From contig OZ024741.1 of NCBI GenBank assembly GCA_964016885.1, positions 333,188,001 to 333,252,000 on the forward strand: 64,000 bases of DNA, written 5' to 3'. Source of the stretch: Eledone cirrhosa. Taxonomy: Eukaryota. Position 1 is the stretch's first letter. Every line of letters begins with the position of its first letter. The translations under genes were made by a program, and so were the position numbers. Of the stretch, positions 25,110 to 64,000 are shown piece after piece. Under the pieces are notes generated by a model. It searched no databases, was not told the DNA's origin, and saw nothing but the letters and a program-made list of their open reading frames with translations.

Positions 25110-25441
25110 AATCATCATCATTTCATTTTATGTCTGCTTTTTCCCTGCTTGCAAGGGTGGGATGGGAACTGATTCTGGCTTGATTTCTACAGCTGGATGC
25201 CCTGCCTAACACCAACCTCATTTACAGTGTGGGCTGGGTGCTTTTTTGCCATGGCACCTCCATGACCACTTTACAGTGGAATGATAGGGACCCCAGTCCC
25301 TATCATCTCATTTCTACAGCTGAGTAAACTGGAGCAATGTGAAATAAAGTGTCTTTCTCAAGGAAACAACACATCACCTGGTCTCAGAATTGAACTCACA
25401 ACCTTTCGATTGCAAGGCCAATGCTCTAACCACTAAGCCAT
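25110..25441 (-). mobile_element. tRNA-head SINE type 2 with RTE-derived 3' tail
   Basis: Head tggcttagtggttagagc...gagttcaattc; tail matches the RTE family 1 3' UTR (~3930-4075); ends in (GAT)n. Second copy at 62098-62371. Confidence 0.8.
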
Positions 25442-37835: not shown

Positions 37836-38734
37836 GGCCTGGGCTAATACTGGCTGAAAGTTATCAAAGTATATATATATATATATTTAGAGAGAGAGAG
37901 AAAGGAGACAGATAAAATTGATTCAGTGATTCAGACTCTCAAAGAAGAAAGTAGCAGACAGAGTCAGACAAAGAGAGAAAGAGAAACCTTCTATTTTTAG
38001 ATATCTCCTGTATCAATATATCGAAACATGCACAAATACAATTTAGCTAAATGACCATATAATGTGGTGTCTTGAATCAGAAAAACCGAAACAACAAGAA
38101 CATCTATCTCCCTTGCTATCCTCTGGGATAATGTCTTTACAATTCTGTCTGTGGGGACCAGAGATTCTTCATGTCAAAGTGGCAGAAATGAGTGAATGAA
38201 AAAACATGACAATATTTCATTGGCTGGTTAGTGCTGTTGCCATTGGCTACTACATACACACATAAATACATACATATACACACACATTCCTCCATACATC
38301 CACACTCATACATATGAATACATAGATAGATACACAGATGCATACACATATACATACACACAGACAAAGAAACATAATACACACATACATAATACATACA
38401 TAAATACATACATATGTTCAGTGTACATCACAACTCAATGAAGAATCTCAAACACCAAAATCTGAAAAACAAAGACAGAAGTTGGAAAATCTTGGCTAGG
38501 TTCTGGCCAGACGGATTGACTTATATTTGAGTGTATATGGTGTCTATATATATAGAGAGAATTACTGCCCAATACCTAAACTCTACTTTCTTAAGTATCG
38601 AGTCCTAAGCTAGTAACTCCCATTTAATATGTTTGAAACATCAGTGACCCACAGATGACAGCCGATGAGCGGGAATTATCCTTGTGTTTACGTTTGTTTC
38701 TCTTACGTTTTCAAAATAATATGTATATATATAT

Positions 38735-39071
38735 TTCGTTTCTGAATTTGTTTAGCAAGATTCTTTATCTGAAAATGTGTGTAGAAACCGATATTGTTAT
38801 ACTTTGGGAAGGTCATGTTGCCAATAAGAAACACACGCACCAGTTGCTTTCACTCCAATTTATTATAAATTAATTATAAATTTGATGAGGTCACAGAATG
38901 TGTGACGAAAGAACTTTGACAATATATGAACAACCGTCCGGTTGTGGAACCAACCAACCAACCGGAAATTTATAAATTTTTTAAATTTATAATTTAATTT
39001 ATAATAAATTGGAGTGAAAGAAACTGGTGCATGTGTTTCTTATTGGCAACATGACCCTCCCAAAGTATAAC

Positions 39072-39075
<4 letters not shown>
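38735..39075. mobile_element. Hammerhead repeat family B: plus-strand copy starting at the ribozyme core, preceded by an inverted 3' segment
   Basis: 38735-38868 is the reverse complement of ~63045-63185; 38882-39070 matches 62945-63117, beginning TTGATGA-g-gtcaca(gaatg)tgtgac-GAAA-gaac-TT-tgac. Confidence 0.75.
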
Positions 39076-39102
<27 letters not shown>

Positions 39103-47320: not shown

Positions 47321-47783
47321 TAAAAGGGGTTTGATTGGTGTTATGGACTCTACCAACCAAACATTCAAGAACAAAGAGTAAAGAGAGTAAAGAGCAAAAG
47401 TAGGGGACGATAAGTCTAATTTTGGTGCGGGAGGGTGGGGTGTGGGTCCTTGTTTACTAGCTGCGGTCATATTCATTCCCGGGAGTCGAGTGGTTAGCTG
47501 AACCATAGATGGGGTGGCGTCGATAGTAGGGTGCAGAGGGTGTGCAGAGGCTACACACACACAAAGGGCATACAATATATATATAACGAAGGAGAAAGTA
47601 CATGAGGTAATTAGAAATGGAAAAAGAGTAATAATAATAATCTATAATTAGTAATGTATAATAAGGCATGGGGAAGATTACACTATAATAAGGTATAAAA
47701 GTAAGAATAAGGTAAAATATAAAGGAGGATAAAAGTGAAAATAAGAATAAAGATAAAAAATATATATAAAAAAAATATATAGA

Positions 47784-47826
<43 letters not shown>

Positions 47827-47907
47827 TATATACATACATATATATGCATATATATGTATATCAATATATATATATATTCAAGCATATATATATATCAATA
47901 TATATAT

Positions 47908-50059
47908 AAATTCAAGCATGTTTTGCAACGTGAGGACCAGAAACAGGAAGTGTTCAAGATTGCGAGGCAGTGTGTCAGAGAGAATTGTGATGTCATTGGA
48001 GAGAAGTGTATCTGGAATGATAAAGGTGAGCTAGCCCTCACAAATGCTGAGAAGAAAGATGCATGGAAGAGTCATTATGATAGATTACTAAATGAGGAGA
48101 ATGCATGGGAAGAAGAGACCCTACCCCAAGTAGACCCTATAGAGGGGCCAGCAGTACAAGTCAGCAGCAGCATAGTAGGTAAGGCAATCAAAGATATGAA
48201 GATGGGGAAGGAAACCGGTCCATCGGGTATAGCTGCCGAGATGCTGAAGGCATCTGGGTCTGTAGGTCACACTATAACCACACGTATTGTTAACCAGGTA
48301 ATACTAGAAGGTGTCATACGAAAAGATTGGTGCAGTAGCATCATTGTCAACTGCTACAAAGGTGATGCACTAGATAGAGGAAACTATAGAGGTATAAAGC
48401 TGATGGACCAGGTCATGAAAGTAACAGAAAGAGTTATAGCACAGTTGATTAGGGACCGGGTGAAAATAGACGAGATGCAATTTGGGTTTGTACCAGGAAG
48501 GGGCACCACTGATGCCCTCTTCCTTGTGAGGCAGTTACAGGAAAAGTACCTAGCTAAAAGTAAGCCACTCTACTTGGCATTTGTCGACCTTGAGAAAGCC
48601 TTTGACAGAGTTCCACGTGCTGTAATCTGGTGGACTCTTAGAAAACTAGGAGTAGATGAATGGCTTGTGAGAGCGGTACAAGCAATGTATAGGGGAGCAG
48701 TCAGCAAAGTTAGGATTAGCAATGAGTATAGCGAGGAATTTAGCGTACAGGTTGGGGTCCACCAGGGCTCTGTTCTTAGTCCCCTCCTGTTCATCATAGT
48801 CCTGCAGGCAATAACGGAGGAGTTTAAGACCGGATGCCCATGGAAGCTCCTGTATGCTGATGACCTTGCACTTATAGCTGAATCTATGGTAGAACTAGAG
48901 AAGAAATTCCAAACTTGGAAGCAGGGACTAGAGAGAAAGGGTCTGAAAGTCAACATGACAAAGACTAAGGTCCTTGTAAGTAGACGAGAAGACAGAACCC
49001 AGATACCCTCAGGGAAATGGCCTTGCTCAGTATGTAGGAAAGGTGTAGGTAGGAACTCCATTCTCTGCCCCAAATGCAAACAATGGGTACACAAGACATG
49101 TAGCGGGATCTCAGGAAGCTTAATTAAGAATGTAGGCTTCAAATGCAGCAGCTGTGCTGGGACAGCAAGCAGCAAACAGCCACAGGAAACAAGTACCACC
49201 AATCTCTGGAAGGGTTCTGTAGAAACAGTAGACAGCTTCTGCTACCTAGGTGACTGAATTAGCAGCACAGGTGGGTGTTCAGAAAGTACAATAACTAGGG
49301 TAAGAACGGAATGGAAGAAGTTTAGGGAACTACTACCACTGCTAGCTGCAAAAGGCTTCTCCCTCAAAATAAAAGGCAGACTGTATGATGCGTGTATCCG
49401 AACAGCGATGTTGCATGGTAGTGAGACCTGGGCGCCGAAGGTGGAAGACTTACGTAGATTAGAGAGAAATGAAGCCTGCATGCTCCGATGGATGTGTAAT
49501 AGTAATATACGCGAACGACAAATGCTGTGTGCAGGAGAGGCGGTTGCGTTGGTATGGACATGTGATGCGTATGAAGGATGACAGCTGCATAAAAAGGTGC
49601 AGAGCACTAGAAGTCAGTGGGGAGACCCAAGATGACCTGGGATGAGGTGATAAAAGCCGACCTTACCCAATTACACCTCTCAAAGGCGATGACACACGAC
49701 CGTGACCTCTGGCGTCACACAGTAATACAGAGTACCTGACCTCCCATGGGTACAAGCTGAAGCGTATAGACAATATGCCCCCACACCCCCCACTGCAAGG
49801 TGGTCGTGGAGGTGCTACAGCAAAAAAGCACCCAGCCCACACTGTAAAGTGGACGTGTAGGCGTCACGAAAAAGCACCCAGTACTCACTGTAAATGAGGT
49901 TGGTGTTAGGAAGGGCATCCAGCTGTAGAAATCAAGCCAAATCAGTTCCTGTAGGAGCAAGGCATGGTCAGCCGACCAAACACTGCCCACAACAGGACAA
50001 CTCGTCTAACCCATGCTAGCGTGGAAGAACGGACGTAAAATAGTGATGATGATGATGAT
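47908..50059 (+). mobile_element. 5'-truncated RTE LINE family 1 with stop codon and internal deletions
   Basis: Highly similar to 1970-4196; TGA at 49255-49257; deletion near 49521; (GAT)n tail; TA-rich flanks. Confidence 0.93.
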
Positions 50060-55265: not shown

Positions 55266-58200
55266 TCATCATCATCATCATCATCAACGTTTAACGTCCG
55301 TGTTCCACGCTTGCATGGGTTTGGACGGGGGTAGTCCCACTTGAGGCAAGAGTGATTGTCTTGCTCGCATAGGACTGTCTGGCGGGTTTTCTACAGTTGG
55401 ATGCCCTTCCTAACACCAACCACATTTACAGTGTGGGTCTGGGAGACACCAACCACATTTACAGTGTGGGTCTGGGAGGTTTTTACCGTGTTGCCTACAC
55501 GGCCACATTACAGCGTGGACTGTGTGTTTTTTTGTCGTGACACCTACACGATCTCATTTGTTTTGGCCTCGATGGCGCGGCACCAACATAACTTTACATA
55601 GAACGGGGTGGTGTGGATCGGGTGGGGGTGGTGGTGGTGGGACGGGGTGTATTTTGTTAGAGATGCCTACTGGCTGGAGTAGGTTTTACTATATATTTAG
55701 GTAAGGCGGGTCTTCTCTGTTACTGAGTACCGCCAAAGGTCTCGGTCCAGTGACATTGTCTTGGAGAGGTGTAAGTGTGTGATGTCGGAGTTTATCAGCT
55801 CGTCCCAGGTTTTTCTAGGTCTGCCTATTCCGTGACTACCGTCTATCTTTATTGCCCTGCACTTTGTTATACAGCTATCGACTTTCATGCGCATCACGTG
55901 TCCATACCAACGTAGCCTTCTCTCGAGTAAACAACATCTGATCCCTCTTATCTCTAATTTTTTCCTTAGTTCGTTTATGCTTTGCCGTTCACGTATATTA
56001 CTGTTACACATCCAGCGGAGCATGCAAGCTTCGTTCCTCTCTAGTCTGCGTATATCCTCTGCACACAATGCCCAGGTCTCACTGCCATGCAGCATTGCTG
56101 TTCGTATGCAGGCATCGTACAACCTGCCTTTCATTTTTAGTGAGAACCCTTTAGCAGCTAATAGTGGTATAAGCTCTCTGAACTTTTTCCAACCAGTTCT
56201 GACTCTAGCTACAGTACTTTCAGAGCACCCTCCCCCACTGCTGATTTTATCGCCCAGGTAACGGAAGCTGTCCACTATTTCTATAGAACCCTCTGCGCAA
56301 TTGAAAGAGCTAGTAGTTTGTGGGCACTTGCTGCTACTTATTGCACCAGAGCACCGGCCACATGTAAAATCTATGTTCTTAGTTAGCTTACCTGTGATCC
56401 CACTACATCTTTTATGCACCCATACTTTGCATTTAGGACATAAAATGGAGTTTCTACCTACGCCTTTCCTACACACCGAGCACGACCATTTCCCAGAAGG
56501 GACCGCCGCCTTGTTTTCTTTCCTACAAACTAGTACTTTGGTCTTAGCCAGGTTAATTTTAAGTCCTTTTGACTCTAGGCCGTGCTTCCATGTTTGGAAT
56601 TTCTTCTCTAGCTCGGCCATTGATTCCGCTATGAGTGTCAGGTCGTCTGCGTATAGGAGTTCCCATGGGCAGCCTGTCTTGAACTCCTCTGTTATAGCCT
56701 GAAGGGCAATAATAAATAGTAGTGGGCTGAGAACAGAGCCCTGATGGACGCCAACTTTTACGCTAAACTCTTCACTATATTCGTTGTTAATTCTAACCTT
56801 GCTGACTGTTTCTTTATACATGGTTTGTATAGCCCTCACAAGCCATTCGTCAACGCCTAGTTTTCTAAGAGCCCACCAGATAATGGAGCGGGGGACTCTG
56901 TCGAAGGCTTTCTCCAAGTCGACAAAAGCTAAGTAGAGGGGTTTACCTTTAGCTAGGTACTTCTCCTGTAGTTGTCGTACTATGAAAAGAGCGTCTGTGG
57001 TACTTTTGCCTGACACAAACCCGAACTGCATTTCATCTAGGTCAATTCTCTCTCTGATTAGTTGCGCTATTACTTTTTCCGTGACCTTCATGACCTGGTC
57101 GATTAATTTAATGCCTCTATAGTTACTCCTATCTAGGGCGTCTCCTTTACCCTTATAACAGTTAACGATGATGCTGCTATGCCAGTCCTTCGGAACAACC
57201 CCATTCTGTATGACTTGGTTAACTATGCGGGTGACCATGGTGTGTCCCACCGTGCCAGATGCCTTCAGCATCTCAGCAACTATTTCCGAAGGCCCAGCCG
57301 CCTTACCCGTCTTCATATCCTTGATTGCCTTACTTATTATACTCCCCTCGACTAACACTGCTGGTCCCTCTATTGGGTCGATATGGGGGAGACTGCCTTT
57401 CTCCCAATTATTCTCCTCATTTAGTAGCCTTTCATAGTGACACTTCCAAGCTACCTTCTTATCAGCGTCGGTGATGGCAAGTGTGCCATCGTCGTTTAGT
57501 ACACACTTCTCCCCGACAATATCACGGTTTTCCTTGACGCATTGCCTAGCAATCCTGAACACCTCACGTTTTTGGTCATCGCGTTGTAGAACATGCTTGA
57601 ACTTTCTTTCCTCAGCTTCCCTTTTTGCTAAGTACACTTGTCTCCTAGCTTCCCTCCTGGCCACTTGATAGTCCTCTCTACTTCCCCCATCCCGCCATAC
57701 TTTCCAAGCCTGCTTTTTGGCCTTAATTGACCCCTCCACCTTACTGTTCCACCACCATGTTACTCTCCTCCTGCCTACAGGCCTGCTCCAGCCACAGACT
57801 TCGTCTGTCGCCAACAGCAGGTTTGCTTTCAGAAATTCCCACTCTCCCTCTATATTGTCCGACTCTAAATGTTCTTCCTTACTGTCGAAAGCATCAAGTA
57901 ATATGCTTTGAAATTTATTCCTGGCTGTGGGGTCCTTTAGCTTCCATATTTTCCTCCTGAGGATAGTCCTCTTCTGTTGTCGAGTACGTCTCGTCCTGAC
58001 TATGAGGTCGCTAATTATCAGTCTATGTTGGGAGGTGCATTCTTCATGGGGGAGGGATTTAGTGTTTACAACAGACACTCTGTCACGTCTTCTGGTAAGG
58101 ATATAATCTACCTGGCTTGTGTGTTCCCCGGATCTATAGGTGATCAGGTGATTGTCACGTTTTTTGAAGTTAGTGTTACAGATAGTTAGGTTATTTGCAT

Positions 58201-59382
58201 CACAGAATTCCAGGATTCTGGAGCCTTCCTCATTTCTAGTACCAAACCCATAGCCTCCATGGATTTCGTCGTAGCCGTCACAATGTTGTCCAACGTGACC
58301 ATTTAGGTCGCCTGCGATAATTATATAGTCACTGTCGGATATTTTGGAGGTAGTTAGCATCAGTGTCTCATAGAATCTGTCTTTTATAGTGCCGGGCAGT
58401 CCGGATTGGGGTGCGTACGCAGATATTACTGTCACCGTAGTTCTATTGAGGACAAGTCGTATTTTAATTATTCTGTCGTTCACTCTATTTACGTCTATTA
58501 TCTTATCTGCCCACTTTTCTGCTACCATGATTCCTACTCCACCCAGCCCATCGTCGTTTCCCACCCAGAAAAGCTTATAACATCGTTTTTTACCCTCAAT
58601 GAACCTAGCAGACCCACCCCTCCACCTGGTCTCTTGAATACAACAAACATCGACCTCCTTACATTCAAGCATTTCTACAACCTCGTTAGCGCGACCCTTT
58701 AGGGTGCCTACATTTATGGTACCAACTCTGAAGTTTTGGATTGCGTTTGGGGGTTGGGGGCGGTGGGGGGCGTGGGGCGATGGGGTTATGTTAGCCGTCC
58801 GCGGTCGAAACAATGAGGAGTGCTCGCATTCTCGTCCAAGAGGTGAATTTGTCTTTATCTTTGGCATTGTCGCTGAGCGTCCAGATTTTTCTCTCTCTCA
58901 CCTCCACTCTCCAGGATTCCGCAGTCCATCCATCCATCATATATCGAAAGGCAACCAGGCAAGCGATAGTATAGACCTCTGGTTTCTGATTGGTCCGCGT
59001 AATAATACTGGTGATGCGTGGGGGCTCTGTTTTATGATTGGTCCACGTAATAGCAATGGTGGGAGGGAGGGGGTGTTGGGTAGCTAGCAAGAAGGTAATG
59101 ATTGAATGGGGTCTTTGCGTTTAACAAGCGATTAACAAAAATACAAAATTTGTTCTGTTAAATACGCCCAAAAACTTTCGTATTTAACAATTAATAGAAA
59201 CAGAAAATGTAGTTTGTTTTAGCGATAGATTGGCTATTTGGACTTGATACGAAATATGGATTGTTTTGAAAATACGCTAGAATTAAGATTTGTGGAGGGA
59301 GAGAAATGAAATCCGTACATTACGTTACATGAATATCGTGGGTAGAGACAGCAAGCAATGAAATTTGGCGAAGTGAATTCCT

Positions 59383-62097: not shown

Positions 62098-62371
62098 TCA
62101 TCATAATCATTTCATTTTACGTCCGCTTTTTCCCTGCTTGCAAGGGTGGGACGGGAACTGATTCTGGCTTGATTTCTACAGCTGGATGCCCTTCCTAACA
62201 CCAACCTCATTTACAGTGAGTGCTGGGTGCTTTTTTGCCGTGGCGCCTCCATGACCACTTTGCAGTGGAATGATATGGACCTCAGTCCCTATCACTTCAT
62301 TTCTACAGCTGAGTAAACTGGAGCAATGTGAAATAAAGTGTCTTGCTCAAGGAAACAACACATCACCCGGT
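62098..62371 (-). mobile_element. SINE type 2 with RTE tail, head missing
   Basis: Matches 25110-25382. Confidence 0.8.
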
Positions 62372-63185
62372 TTGCCAATAAGAAACACACGCACCAGTTG
62401 CTTTCACTTCAATTTATTATAATAAATTTATAAATTTAGGAATTTATAAATTTCCGGTTGGTTGGTTCAACAACCAGATGGTTGTTTATATATTGTCAAA
62501 GTTCTTTCGTCACACATTCTGTGACCTATTCAGTGACTGGGGATTCTTTTCTTTGTTTTTTGTGCCTCTCCTTTGTTTTGTCCTATGCTATCTTGTTTGT
62601 GTGTGTGTGTTGTGTGCTTAGTTTGCGCATGTGTTACATCCGGGTAAACATAAATGAATTACAACCAAAATTAAAATTAAATTAAATTAAATTAAATAGA
62701 AAATATGAGTGGAACAGCAACATCACAACTTACAATTAAGGACAAAATGAAAACACACACGCATATAGAACAAACAACCAACCAGTAACATGTAAATAAA
62801 CAAATAAATAAACGAATATAAACACACAGACACCCGGATGTAACACATGCGCAAACTAAGCACACAACACACACACAAAAACAAGATGGCGTAGGACAGA
62901 ACAAAGGAGAGGCACAAAAAAACAAAGAAAAGAATCCCCAGTTACTGAAGAGGTCACAGAATGTGTGACGAAAGAACTTTGACAATATATAAACAACCAT
63001 CTGGTTGTGGAACCAACCAACCAACCGGAAATTTATAAATTCATTATAATAAATTGAAGTGAAAGCAACTGGTGCGTGTGTTTCTTATTGGCAACATGAC
63101 CCTCCCAAAGTATAACAATATCGGTTTCAACACACGTTTTCAGATAAAGATTCTTGCTAAACAAATTCAGAAACGAAATATATAT
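62372..63185. mobile_element. Penelope-like/retrozyme-like non-coding element family B with inverted partial duplicate and two hammerhead motifs
   Basis: 62372-62645 is the reverse complement of ~62832-63094; hammerhead motifs at 62495-62537 (-) and 62941-62983 (+). Confidence 0.75.
62941..62983 (+). ncRNA. Type I hammerhead ribozyme motif with intact core (family B)
   Basis: gtta-CTGAAGA-g-gtcaca(gaatg)tgtgac-GAAA-g-aa-c-TT-tgac: 4-bp stem I, 6-bp stem II, 2-bp stem III, predicted cut after 62979. Confidence 0.75.
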
Positions 63186-64000
63186 ATATATATTGTTAGT
63201 TCTATCGTTACTTTGGTATAGTATTGTATGTTAGATTTGGCTACCACAATGTTCGATTTGTCAAGCTATTTAAACGTATGTTATTACTCTAAGGACCTAA
63301 CTTATCGAGTGCTTTGCTAACTCATCATTTCATATAAGTAGGCCGAATTTACTTGCAAACCACCAAATTCGATTTTACTAAATTTCCAATTATATATATA
63401 TCTCATGCTACCATGGTAAAACAGACGTTACACAGTGATGGATTTATACATATGTATATACATATACATACAGTATTAAACATTTTTTAGCAAAAACCTC
63501 CATTAAGAACAAAGCTCTAGAAACATTGATAATTTTGTCCTTAATTACTAAATTATATCAGCTATATTATTACTACTCAATTCATTTTTGAGCTTAATCA
63601 AATTAGAACCACTTAGCAAAGAACATTCATCCATGCACCTGTTTTCTAGAAATTACCTCCATGACTCAAACCTTGTTGTCTCTTTGTTTAAGTGATTTTT
63701 TTTTTTTTTAATATTATATCTCAACAATATTGGATTGGCAGTGTCTTTACAGTGTTGGAAAAACGCTGCACTTATGCTTAAATTATCATTATTATTATTA
63801 TTATTGTTATTACTCTTTGAGTCTCAGTCATTGATGTTAGTTAACTGGAAAGTTTGTTGAGATGAATATCAAGCCACTACCTGCAGCCTCAGATATTCAG
63901 GACGTATCGGAGGGTTCTTGCTGTTCCCAGCAAGCATGCCTTTTGAAGCATTCCAAAAAGCGTGAAGGGGCCAATTTTCTTTAACCATCCCTGGAAACTT

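What the first reader, a model, noticed from the sequence alone, without database searches (positions are those of the whole stretch)
62372..63185. Family B element: intact-core hammerhead with an inverted 5' duplicate
Seen: a ~540-bp plus-strand unit (62646-63185) with an intact-core hammerhead is preceded by a ~270-bp inverted copy whose core is mutated (CUGAAUA). The same inverted geometry recurs at 38735-39075, where the plus copy starts at the ribozyme core. Known: inverted partial pLTR duplicates are characteristic of Penelope-like insertions. Inference: two independent insertions of a non-autonomous PLE family. Read-through transcripts would form long dsRNA.
Basis: partly seen in the sequence, partly recalled or inferred. 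Interest (0 to 1): 0.75.

Follow-up and report, generated by a model that had tools for sequence, protein, structure and literature searches.

The report
Truncated Penelope insertion, likely unclassified clade
This is a pair of cut-down tail ends of a protein-coding Penelope-type jumping gene joined back to back, an ordinary layout; the unusual part is that the parent's copying enzyme carries an extra piece of about 70 amino acids that likely marks a branch of these elements not yet named.

Summary
The geometry is real: a 274-bp inverted arm (62372-62645, core CUGAAUA) joined head to head to a 536-bp direct arm (core CUGAAGA), and again at 38735-39076. It is not a non-autonomous family. Copies elsewhere run on into a ~4.0-4.1-kb Penelope-like element with one reverse transcriptase (RT) + C-terminal GIY-YIG reading frame; the window arm holds its last codons, the hammerhead and the first 29 codons of the next unit. 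Outer ends fall at two AAUAU sites (ORF bases 26 and 86) next to (AT)n; 47 of 51 head-to-head pairs have one of each. Only 1 of 167 inner ends lies at the ribozyme cut. The hammerhead is the known minimal PLE type, predicted not to cut alone. Less ordinary: the parent RT has ~128 residues between motifs A and B' (canonical relatives 55-62), yet a C-terminal endonuclease, a combination absent from the eight-clade scheme I read; the insert-bearing proteins form one long branch (100/100) against Neptune-, Nematis- and Poseidon-like controls.

The parts
62372..62645 (-). inverted arm: 3' UTR/pLTR copy from 277 to 2 bases before the ORF start codon; outer end clipped short of the usual base-26 end
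62495..62537 (-). minimal hammerhead of the inverted arm, core CUGAAUA (G8 lost)
62646..63181 (+). direct arm: 5'-truncated 3' end of the ~4-kb element
62647..62739 (+). last ~30 codons of the GIY-YIG domain (NINELQPK...NSNITTYN*), interrupted by an AATTA repeat expansion with a stop
62941..62983 (+). minimal type I hammerhead, intact core CUGAAGA, extra G before stem II, predicted cut after 62979
   Evidence: features as in PMC4209133
63096..63181 (+). start of the ORF of the next tandem unit (MTLPKYNN...), ATG at 63096
63122..63181 (+). 60-base 'tail' between the two end sites (63121 and 63181, both AATAT|CG in tandem copies)
63178..63193 (.). (AT)n target remnant
   Evidence: 85 of 93 ends have such a flank
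38727..38883 (-). second insertion, inverted arm with the long (tailed) end, next to (AT)n
38883..39076 (+). second insertion, direct arm from U4 of the hammerhead core to the short end, next to (AT)n

Best explanation
The locus is two 5'-truncated 3' ends of an RT-plus-GIY-YIG Penelope-like retrotransposon joined head to head, likely written by the element's own protein into an (AT)n target. Shown: parent of ~4.0-4.1 kb with one (now broken) ORF, pLTR with a minimal hammerhead, two fixed outer ends at ORF bases 26 and 86, (AT)n flanks, one short and one long end per pair, ragged inner ends. Inferred: the endonuclease opens both strands of (AT)n; each 3' end pairs with one of two AUAU sites in a sense RNA that runs from the pLTR into the next ORF start and primes cDNA there; the two cDNAs stop at different points and are joined by microhomology or filler. 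The hammerhead rides along and is predicted not to set either end. The parent RT carries a folded ~70-residue insert between motifs A and B' and likely belongs to a PLE branch outside the eight named clades.
For: Parent: (ATG-to-ATG 4018-4093 in L099, L101, L105, L109). Ends: 107 long, 68 short, 8 other of 183 in 114 loci; 66 of 114 loci show a head-to-head joint; 47 of 51 pairs short+long, no short+short; 13 of 13 in the subset chosen without regard to the tail, p about 8e-5 if ends were independent. Joints: 27 overlaps of 1-10 bases, 6 blunt, 16 fillers of 1-10, 20 other of 69. Arms of one locus share subfamily variants (17% discordant sites against 39% shuffled, 44 pairs); in L141 both arms share 23 sense-strand A>G changes (7.4 expected). 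Two metagenome relatives (L112, L114) also end in (AT)n about 8 codons after a matching ATG. Two internal start sites and cutting of both strands are shown in vitro for the anole element (PMC11167929, parts 1-2 read). Fold: telomerase RTs rank first, GIY-YIG matches I-TevI (Z 10.7, rmsd 2.0, 89 aligned). Insert: motif A to B' spacing 117-153, mode 128-129, in 89 measurable of 175 proteins against 55-62 in 114 of 121 controls; tree without the insert 100/100.
Against: No activity was measured. All 13 full-length copies fetched are broken (longest open stretch 881 codons), so an active source was not seen. Loci were the best matches to probes, so they lean to young, similar copies. A fold-back mechanism explains the shared variants equally well, and a few pairs start at nearly the same point (L134, L147, L156, L165). 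Some pairs have arms of different subfamilies (L023, L025, L086). The anole study reports start sites without homology to the cut DNA, unlike the AUAU pairing inferred here. The window's own left arm lacks the short end (clipped at -2, abutting a cut SINE-like repeat), which needs a later deletion (inferred). The tree lacks Naiad, Chlamys, Hydra, Coprina, Athena and TERT, is unrooted, its control groups are labelled by motif only, and the insert group was collected by similarity to the query.
Confidence: 0.8

Rival explanations
1. Same element, but the inverted arm arises by self-priming or fold-back: one cDNA is started, snaps back or switches template and copies itself, and the second end is set by endonuclease cleavage at the short site (proposed for rotifer PLEs, possibly on an antisense RNA).
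For: PMC3846280 (passages) argues for self-priming from palindromic joints; shared variants and shared A>G marks between arms; a few near-symmetric pairs.
Against: Most joints are asymmetric by tens to hundreds of bases with short overlaps or fillers; L141 arms also hold private edits (13 and 4) and the marks are A>G on the sense strand, against an antisense template there; in vitro RT starts at both tail ends in the anole element.
Confidence: 0.25
2. A non-autonomous, retrozyme-like family of ~540 bases whose ends are set by hammerhead cleavage.
For: Many copies are short (99 of 167 inner ends lie within 280 bases of the ATG); the core is well kept (69 of 87 parsed copies CUGAAGA); 5 inner ends fall at the core start.
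Against: No fixed 5' end; copies grade continuously into the ORF; no arrays of hammerhead units; 1 of 167 inner ends at the cut.
Confidence: 0.03
3. The insert-bearing RTs are only a sub-lineage of a named clade (most plausibly Nematis, by the short zinc-finger linker) or are already catalogued in Repbase/Dfam under a generic Penelope name.
For: Linker C-x4-C-x2-C ... C is of Nematis length (against Fig. S2 text); octopus annotation lists 30 recently active 'Penelope' families without clade (PMC13282606, passages); Repbase and Dfam could not be searched.
Against: Long separating branch (about 0.9 changes per column, 100/100) from Nematis-like controls with the insert left out; different diagnostic motifs (PPKF/Y, DKS, GG.IG) and spacing; no such spacing among the C-terminal-EN rows of Fig. 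S1.
Confidence: 0.35

Closest known systems
C-terminal EN+ Penelope-like elements with zinc-finger linker (Nematis, Neptune; PMC8557442)
   Same: Single RT + C-terminal GIY-YIG ORF, CX2-5CxxC linker and CCHH motif, pLTR partial tandems, inverted truncated 5' copy, tail at one end, (TA)n targets, hammerhead in the pLTR.
   Different: ~70 extra residues between RT motifs A and B'; PPKF/Y for GxKF/Y, DKS for DKG; tail of 60 bases rather than 30-40; separate branch in my tree.
Naiad/Chlamys PLEs (PMC8557442)
   Same: Insert at the IFD position; Naiad-type zinc fingers in the endonuclease; (TA)n targets.
   Different: Endonuclease is C-terminal, not N-terminal; insert longer (spacing ~128 against about 81 for Naiad-Amil and 102-119 for two Chlamys, counted by hand from Fig. 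S1 text); a recognisable hammerhead is present.
Hydra PLEs (PMC8557442)
   Same: C-terminal EN, (TA)n targets, hammerhead with an extra base before stem II and often U at the cut, RW and KDHK motifs.
   Different: Hydra has no IFD, lacks CCHH, has DKT and is under 3 kb; this family has CCHH, DKS, the insert and ~4 kb.
Minimal hammerheads of metazoan PLEs (PMC4209133)
   Same: Long stem II, short stem I, unpaired base between 9 and 10.1, almost no stem III.
   Different: Stem III region AGAACU is not palindromic, so even the dimer helix is predicted weak (+1.4 kcal/mol); relative L114 has palindromic AUUAAU.
Telomerase RT IFD
   Same: Position and rough length of the insert (human spacing about 115 from Fig. 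S1 text).
   Different: Human TERT aligns to about as many residues of the RT-core model (164-171) as the beetle TERT with its much shorter span (163), so the insert does not appear to superpose on the IFD.

Membership tests
EN+ Penelope-like elements | one ORF with telomerase-like RT and GIY-YIG endonuclease | tested here: met
   (pieces in genomic copies); intact 889-1175-aa relatives; fold matches TERT and I-TevI
EN+ Penelope-like elements | pLTRs from partial tandems; pLTR overlaps the ORF start | tested here: met
   13 of 30 loci
EN+ Penelope-like elements | inverted 5'-truncated copy and a tail at one end only | tested here: met
   66 of 114 loci head to head; 47 of 51 pairs short+long; tail 60 bases
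EN+ Penelope-like elements | hammerhead motif in the pLTR | tested here: met
   position 17 is U in 81 and A in 6 of 87 parsed copies, never G
EN+ Penelope-like elements | self-cleavage, target-primed reverse transcription | not testable with these tools
   no assay
EN+ Penelope-like elements | target-site duplication | tested here: inconclusive
   ends lie in (AT)n, where a duplication cannot be told apart
Nematis | C-terminal EN with short CX2-5CxxC linker and CCHH | tested here: met
   CIDKKCIIC...C, C..C inside GIY-YIG, two H after it
Nematis | no insert between RT3(A) and RT4(B); GxKF/Y and DKG motifs | tested here: not met
   spacing 128; PPKY and DKS
Nematis | RT groups with the clade | tested here: inconclusive
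   separate from motif-labelled Nematis-like controls, but no named reference was in the tree
Neptune | long zinc-finger linker, DKG, no IFD | tested here: not met
   Neptune-type families of the same genome (L223, L225, L226, L231) have spacing 59, a long linker and their own branch
Naiad/Chlamys | N-terminal GIY-YIG | tested here: not met
   EN is C-terminal in genomic copies and in the aligned relatives
Naiad/Chlamys | insert at the IFD position | tested here: met
   present and longer
Naiad/Chlamys | RT groups with the clade | not tested
   no Naiad or Chlamys sequence could be obtained
Hydra | CCHH absent, no IFD, DKT | tested here: not met
   CCHH present, insert present, DKS
Non-LTR retrozymes | non-coding tandem units each with a hammerhead | tested here: not met
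   coding parent; tandem joints rare (4 of 40 and 4 of 36 joints)
DNA transposon / MITE | fixed terminal inverted repeats at both ends | tested here: not met
   inner ends ragged, arm lengths differ from locus to locus

The most novel reading that the evidence does not exclude
The parent belongs to a large, unnamed ninth clade of Penelope-like elements: C-terminal CCHH endonuclease and pLTR hammerhead like canonical PLEs, but with a conserved, independently gained ~70-residue folded domain at the telomerase IFD position, and with two AUAU priming sites that pair with the (AT)n target so that each insertion gets one short and one long end.
Probability: 0.55. Interest if true: 0.6.

Novelty: new variant of a known kind. 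Interest (0 to 1): 0.42.

Why it matters
The flagged locus itself is a textbook dead PLE stump. If the clade reading holds, the published rule that only N-terminal-EN PLEs carry an IFD-position insert fails, a widespread group (up to 2197 clusters at E<=1e-30, an upper bound that may include canonical PLEs) is missing from the classification, and the fingers position of telomerase-like RTs has gained inserts more than once. The strict short+long pairing with two AAUAU sites gives a simple in vitro test of how head-to-head PLE insertions form.

Tried and rejected
Rfam: no hammerhead hit in the region. No RNA holder listed, so expression and cleavage ends were not examined. Ribozyme cut as an end-former: rejected. 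The cluster of 5 inner ends at the core start (of 99 within 280 bases) and the cluster in the AC-rich stretch at -222 to -251 were noticed after the fact and are not claimed. First tree with LINE outgroups (quick method, insert columns kept, two rows mis-trimmed) was distorted by the long outgroup branch and was not used; five rows were skipped by the motif finder and one (P0031) was mis-trimmed. Attempts to bring in Naiad or Hydra references found nothing. The protein atlas gave no answer. PDB sequence search found only two weak bacterial RT hits. Literature searches for a described clade with this insert returned only PMC8557442 as relevant; subscription journals, Repbase and Dfam are not covered, and long lines in that paper's supplement are cut, so its zero counts for RPVCG, MVWWD, PPKF and PPKY are weak. 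One search found no paper on twin priming in PLEs. Of six metagenome loci only L112, L113, L114 kept a 3' UTR: L114 has a clear minimal hammerhead, L112 a variant core read by eye, L113 none recognised.

Full report
Observation. The arms are as described: 62372-62645 on the minus strand matches 62832-63094 at 91%; the plus arm has an intact core CUGAAGA with a predicted cut after 62979, the minus arm CUGAAUA. The second site has the same head-to-head join, 38727-38883 minus against 38883-39076 plus, the latter starting at U4 of the core. The genome is a 3.0-Gb animal assembly with at least 1034 candidate places for the 540-base probe; the label 'octopod-like' comes from earlier scan notes, not from a test of mine.

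The parent. In the first 30 loci the match continues upstream; 8 run past the 1.5-kb flank and encode RT and GIY-YIG pieces, up to 504 open codons. A probe from the 5' part gave 30 loci, 13 of which have the pLTR directly before the ORF start. Thirteen of these fetched whole give a unit of about 4.0-4.1 kb; all 13 have frameshifts or stops. The window arm therefore holds the last ~30 codons, the 3' UTR with the hammerhead, and the first 29 codons of the next unit (ATG at 63096). This is the arrangement described for PLEs in PMC8557442 (parts of the main text and supplement parts 1, 2, 53, 54, 59 read) and PMC3846280 (passages). 'Non-autonomous family' is refuted.

Ends. Across 114 loci (best matches to four probes, duplicates dropped), 107 outer ends are long (ORF base 86), 68 short (base 26) and 8 other; 66 loci show a head-to-head join; 47 of 51 pairs with both ends in view have one short and one long end, and the four others include the window locus, whose left arm is clipped two bases before the ATG. 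In one batch 85 of 93 ends were flanked by (AT)n. Both end sites read AATAT|CG in tandem copies, which could pair with an (AT)n primer (inference). Relatives L112 and L114 end in (AT)n about eight codons after a matching ATG. Inner ends are ragged; 1 of 167 is at the ribozyme cut. The two arms of a locus usually share subfamily variants (17% against 39% discordance; divergence 4.9% against 6.6% shuffled), with exceptions. L141 has 23 shared sense A>G changes in both arms, plus private ones. Together with the in vitro work on the anole element (PMC11167929, parts 1-2 read), the best reading is priming from both cut strands at two internal sites; fold-back remains a rival.

Hammerhead. 104 stretches were collected, 87 parsed, 69 with CUGAAGA; the cut base is U or A, never G. 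It fits the minimal PLE hammerhead of PMC4209133 (parts 1-2 read), where single motifs did not cleave. The monomer would need a 2-base loop, which the folding program cannot form, and the dimer helix is unfavourable. In an inverted insertion a read-through RNA pairs the motif with its antisense copy. So the motif is real but predicted idle here.

The unusual protein. The distance from the motif A aspartate to the motif B' glutamine is 128 in genomic copies and 126-131 in 22 of 24 full-length relatives, and 117-153 in 89 measurable of 175 proteins. Controls from a second PLE family of this genome and its homologues give 55-62 in 114 of 121; Neptune-type families give 59. Counted by hand from Fig. 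S1 text: Penelope 58, Neptune 57, Naiad-Amil 81, two Chlamys 102 and 119, human TERT 115. PMC8557442 states that canonical C-terminal-EN PLEs lack this insert, and a 2026 preprint (10.64898/2026.07.22.740005, part 1 and passages) still lists eight clades. AlphaFold models are confident (pLDDT 91.8 and 93.8), with the insert folded as short helices; telomerases rank first, but aligned lengths suggest the insert does not overlay the TERT IFD (no residue-level alignment was available). With the insert left out, 17 insert-bearing rows form one side of a long branch (100/100) against 22 control rows; the tree is unrooted, lacks Naiad, Chlamys, Hydra, Coprina, Athena and TERT, and its labels come from motifs.

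Verdict. The flagged structure is an ordinary truncated PLE insertion (already known kind). The parent is a new variant, probably an unnamed clade. Interest 0.42. Supplements of the bioRxiv preprint were closed and Repbase/Dfam not available; either could hold a prior name.

Noticed in passing
L141:828-1637; L121:1437-2189; L011:1384-1463: One-directional A>G bursts in copies of this family: L141 both arms on the element's sense strand (43 of 55 and 47 of 62 changes), L121 A>G in one arm and T>C in the other (one genomic strand, as from an edited read-through hairpin), L011 short arm 8 of 9 T>C. ADAR-like marks written back into DNA (inferred); 5 of 273 arms flagged; the window arms show none.
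   Followed up: partly
L037:3560-4150: The family's ORF has a ~180-residue Asn/Thr/His-rich in-frame insert after the K.RW motif, absent from the aligned relatives; resembles the N-rich inserts reported for rotifer Penelope elements (PMC3846280).
   Followed up: no
L190:645-3215: A second, far more abundant PLE family (11,410 candidate places) with canonical spacing, a Nematis-like linker and open frames up to 856 codons.
   Followed up: partly
L223, L225, L226, L231: At least four Neptune-type PLE families in the genome, with open frames up to 1096 codons.
   Followed up: partly
window:61970-62371: A SINE-like repeat is cut at 62371 where the inverted arm begins; its twin at 25240-25440 runs on to an (AT)n end, suggesting a later deletion removed the SINE end and the arm's short end.
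   Followed up: partly
window:761-3883, 47770-49257, 55697-58897: LINE-type ORFs (endonuclease + RT), two of them over 1000 codons and open.
   Followed up: no
L117:333-2690: A divergent PLE-like ORF with an even longer, low-complexity insert between motifs A and B' (spacing 181) that does not group with this clade.
   Followed up: partly
L112:2480-2560: Hammerhead-like motif with a variant core (UUGAAAC) in the 3' UTR of a relative, read by eye.
   Followed up: no
P0021: A member of this clade is deposited as a bacterial hypothetical protein from a metagenome-assembled genome, probably eukaryotic contamination.
   Followed up: no
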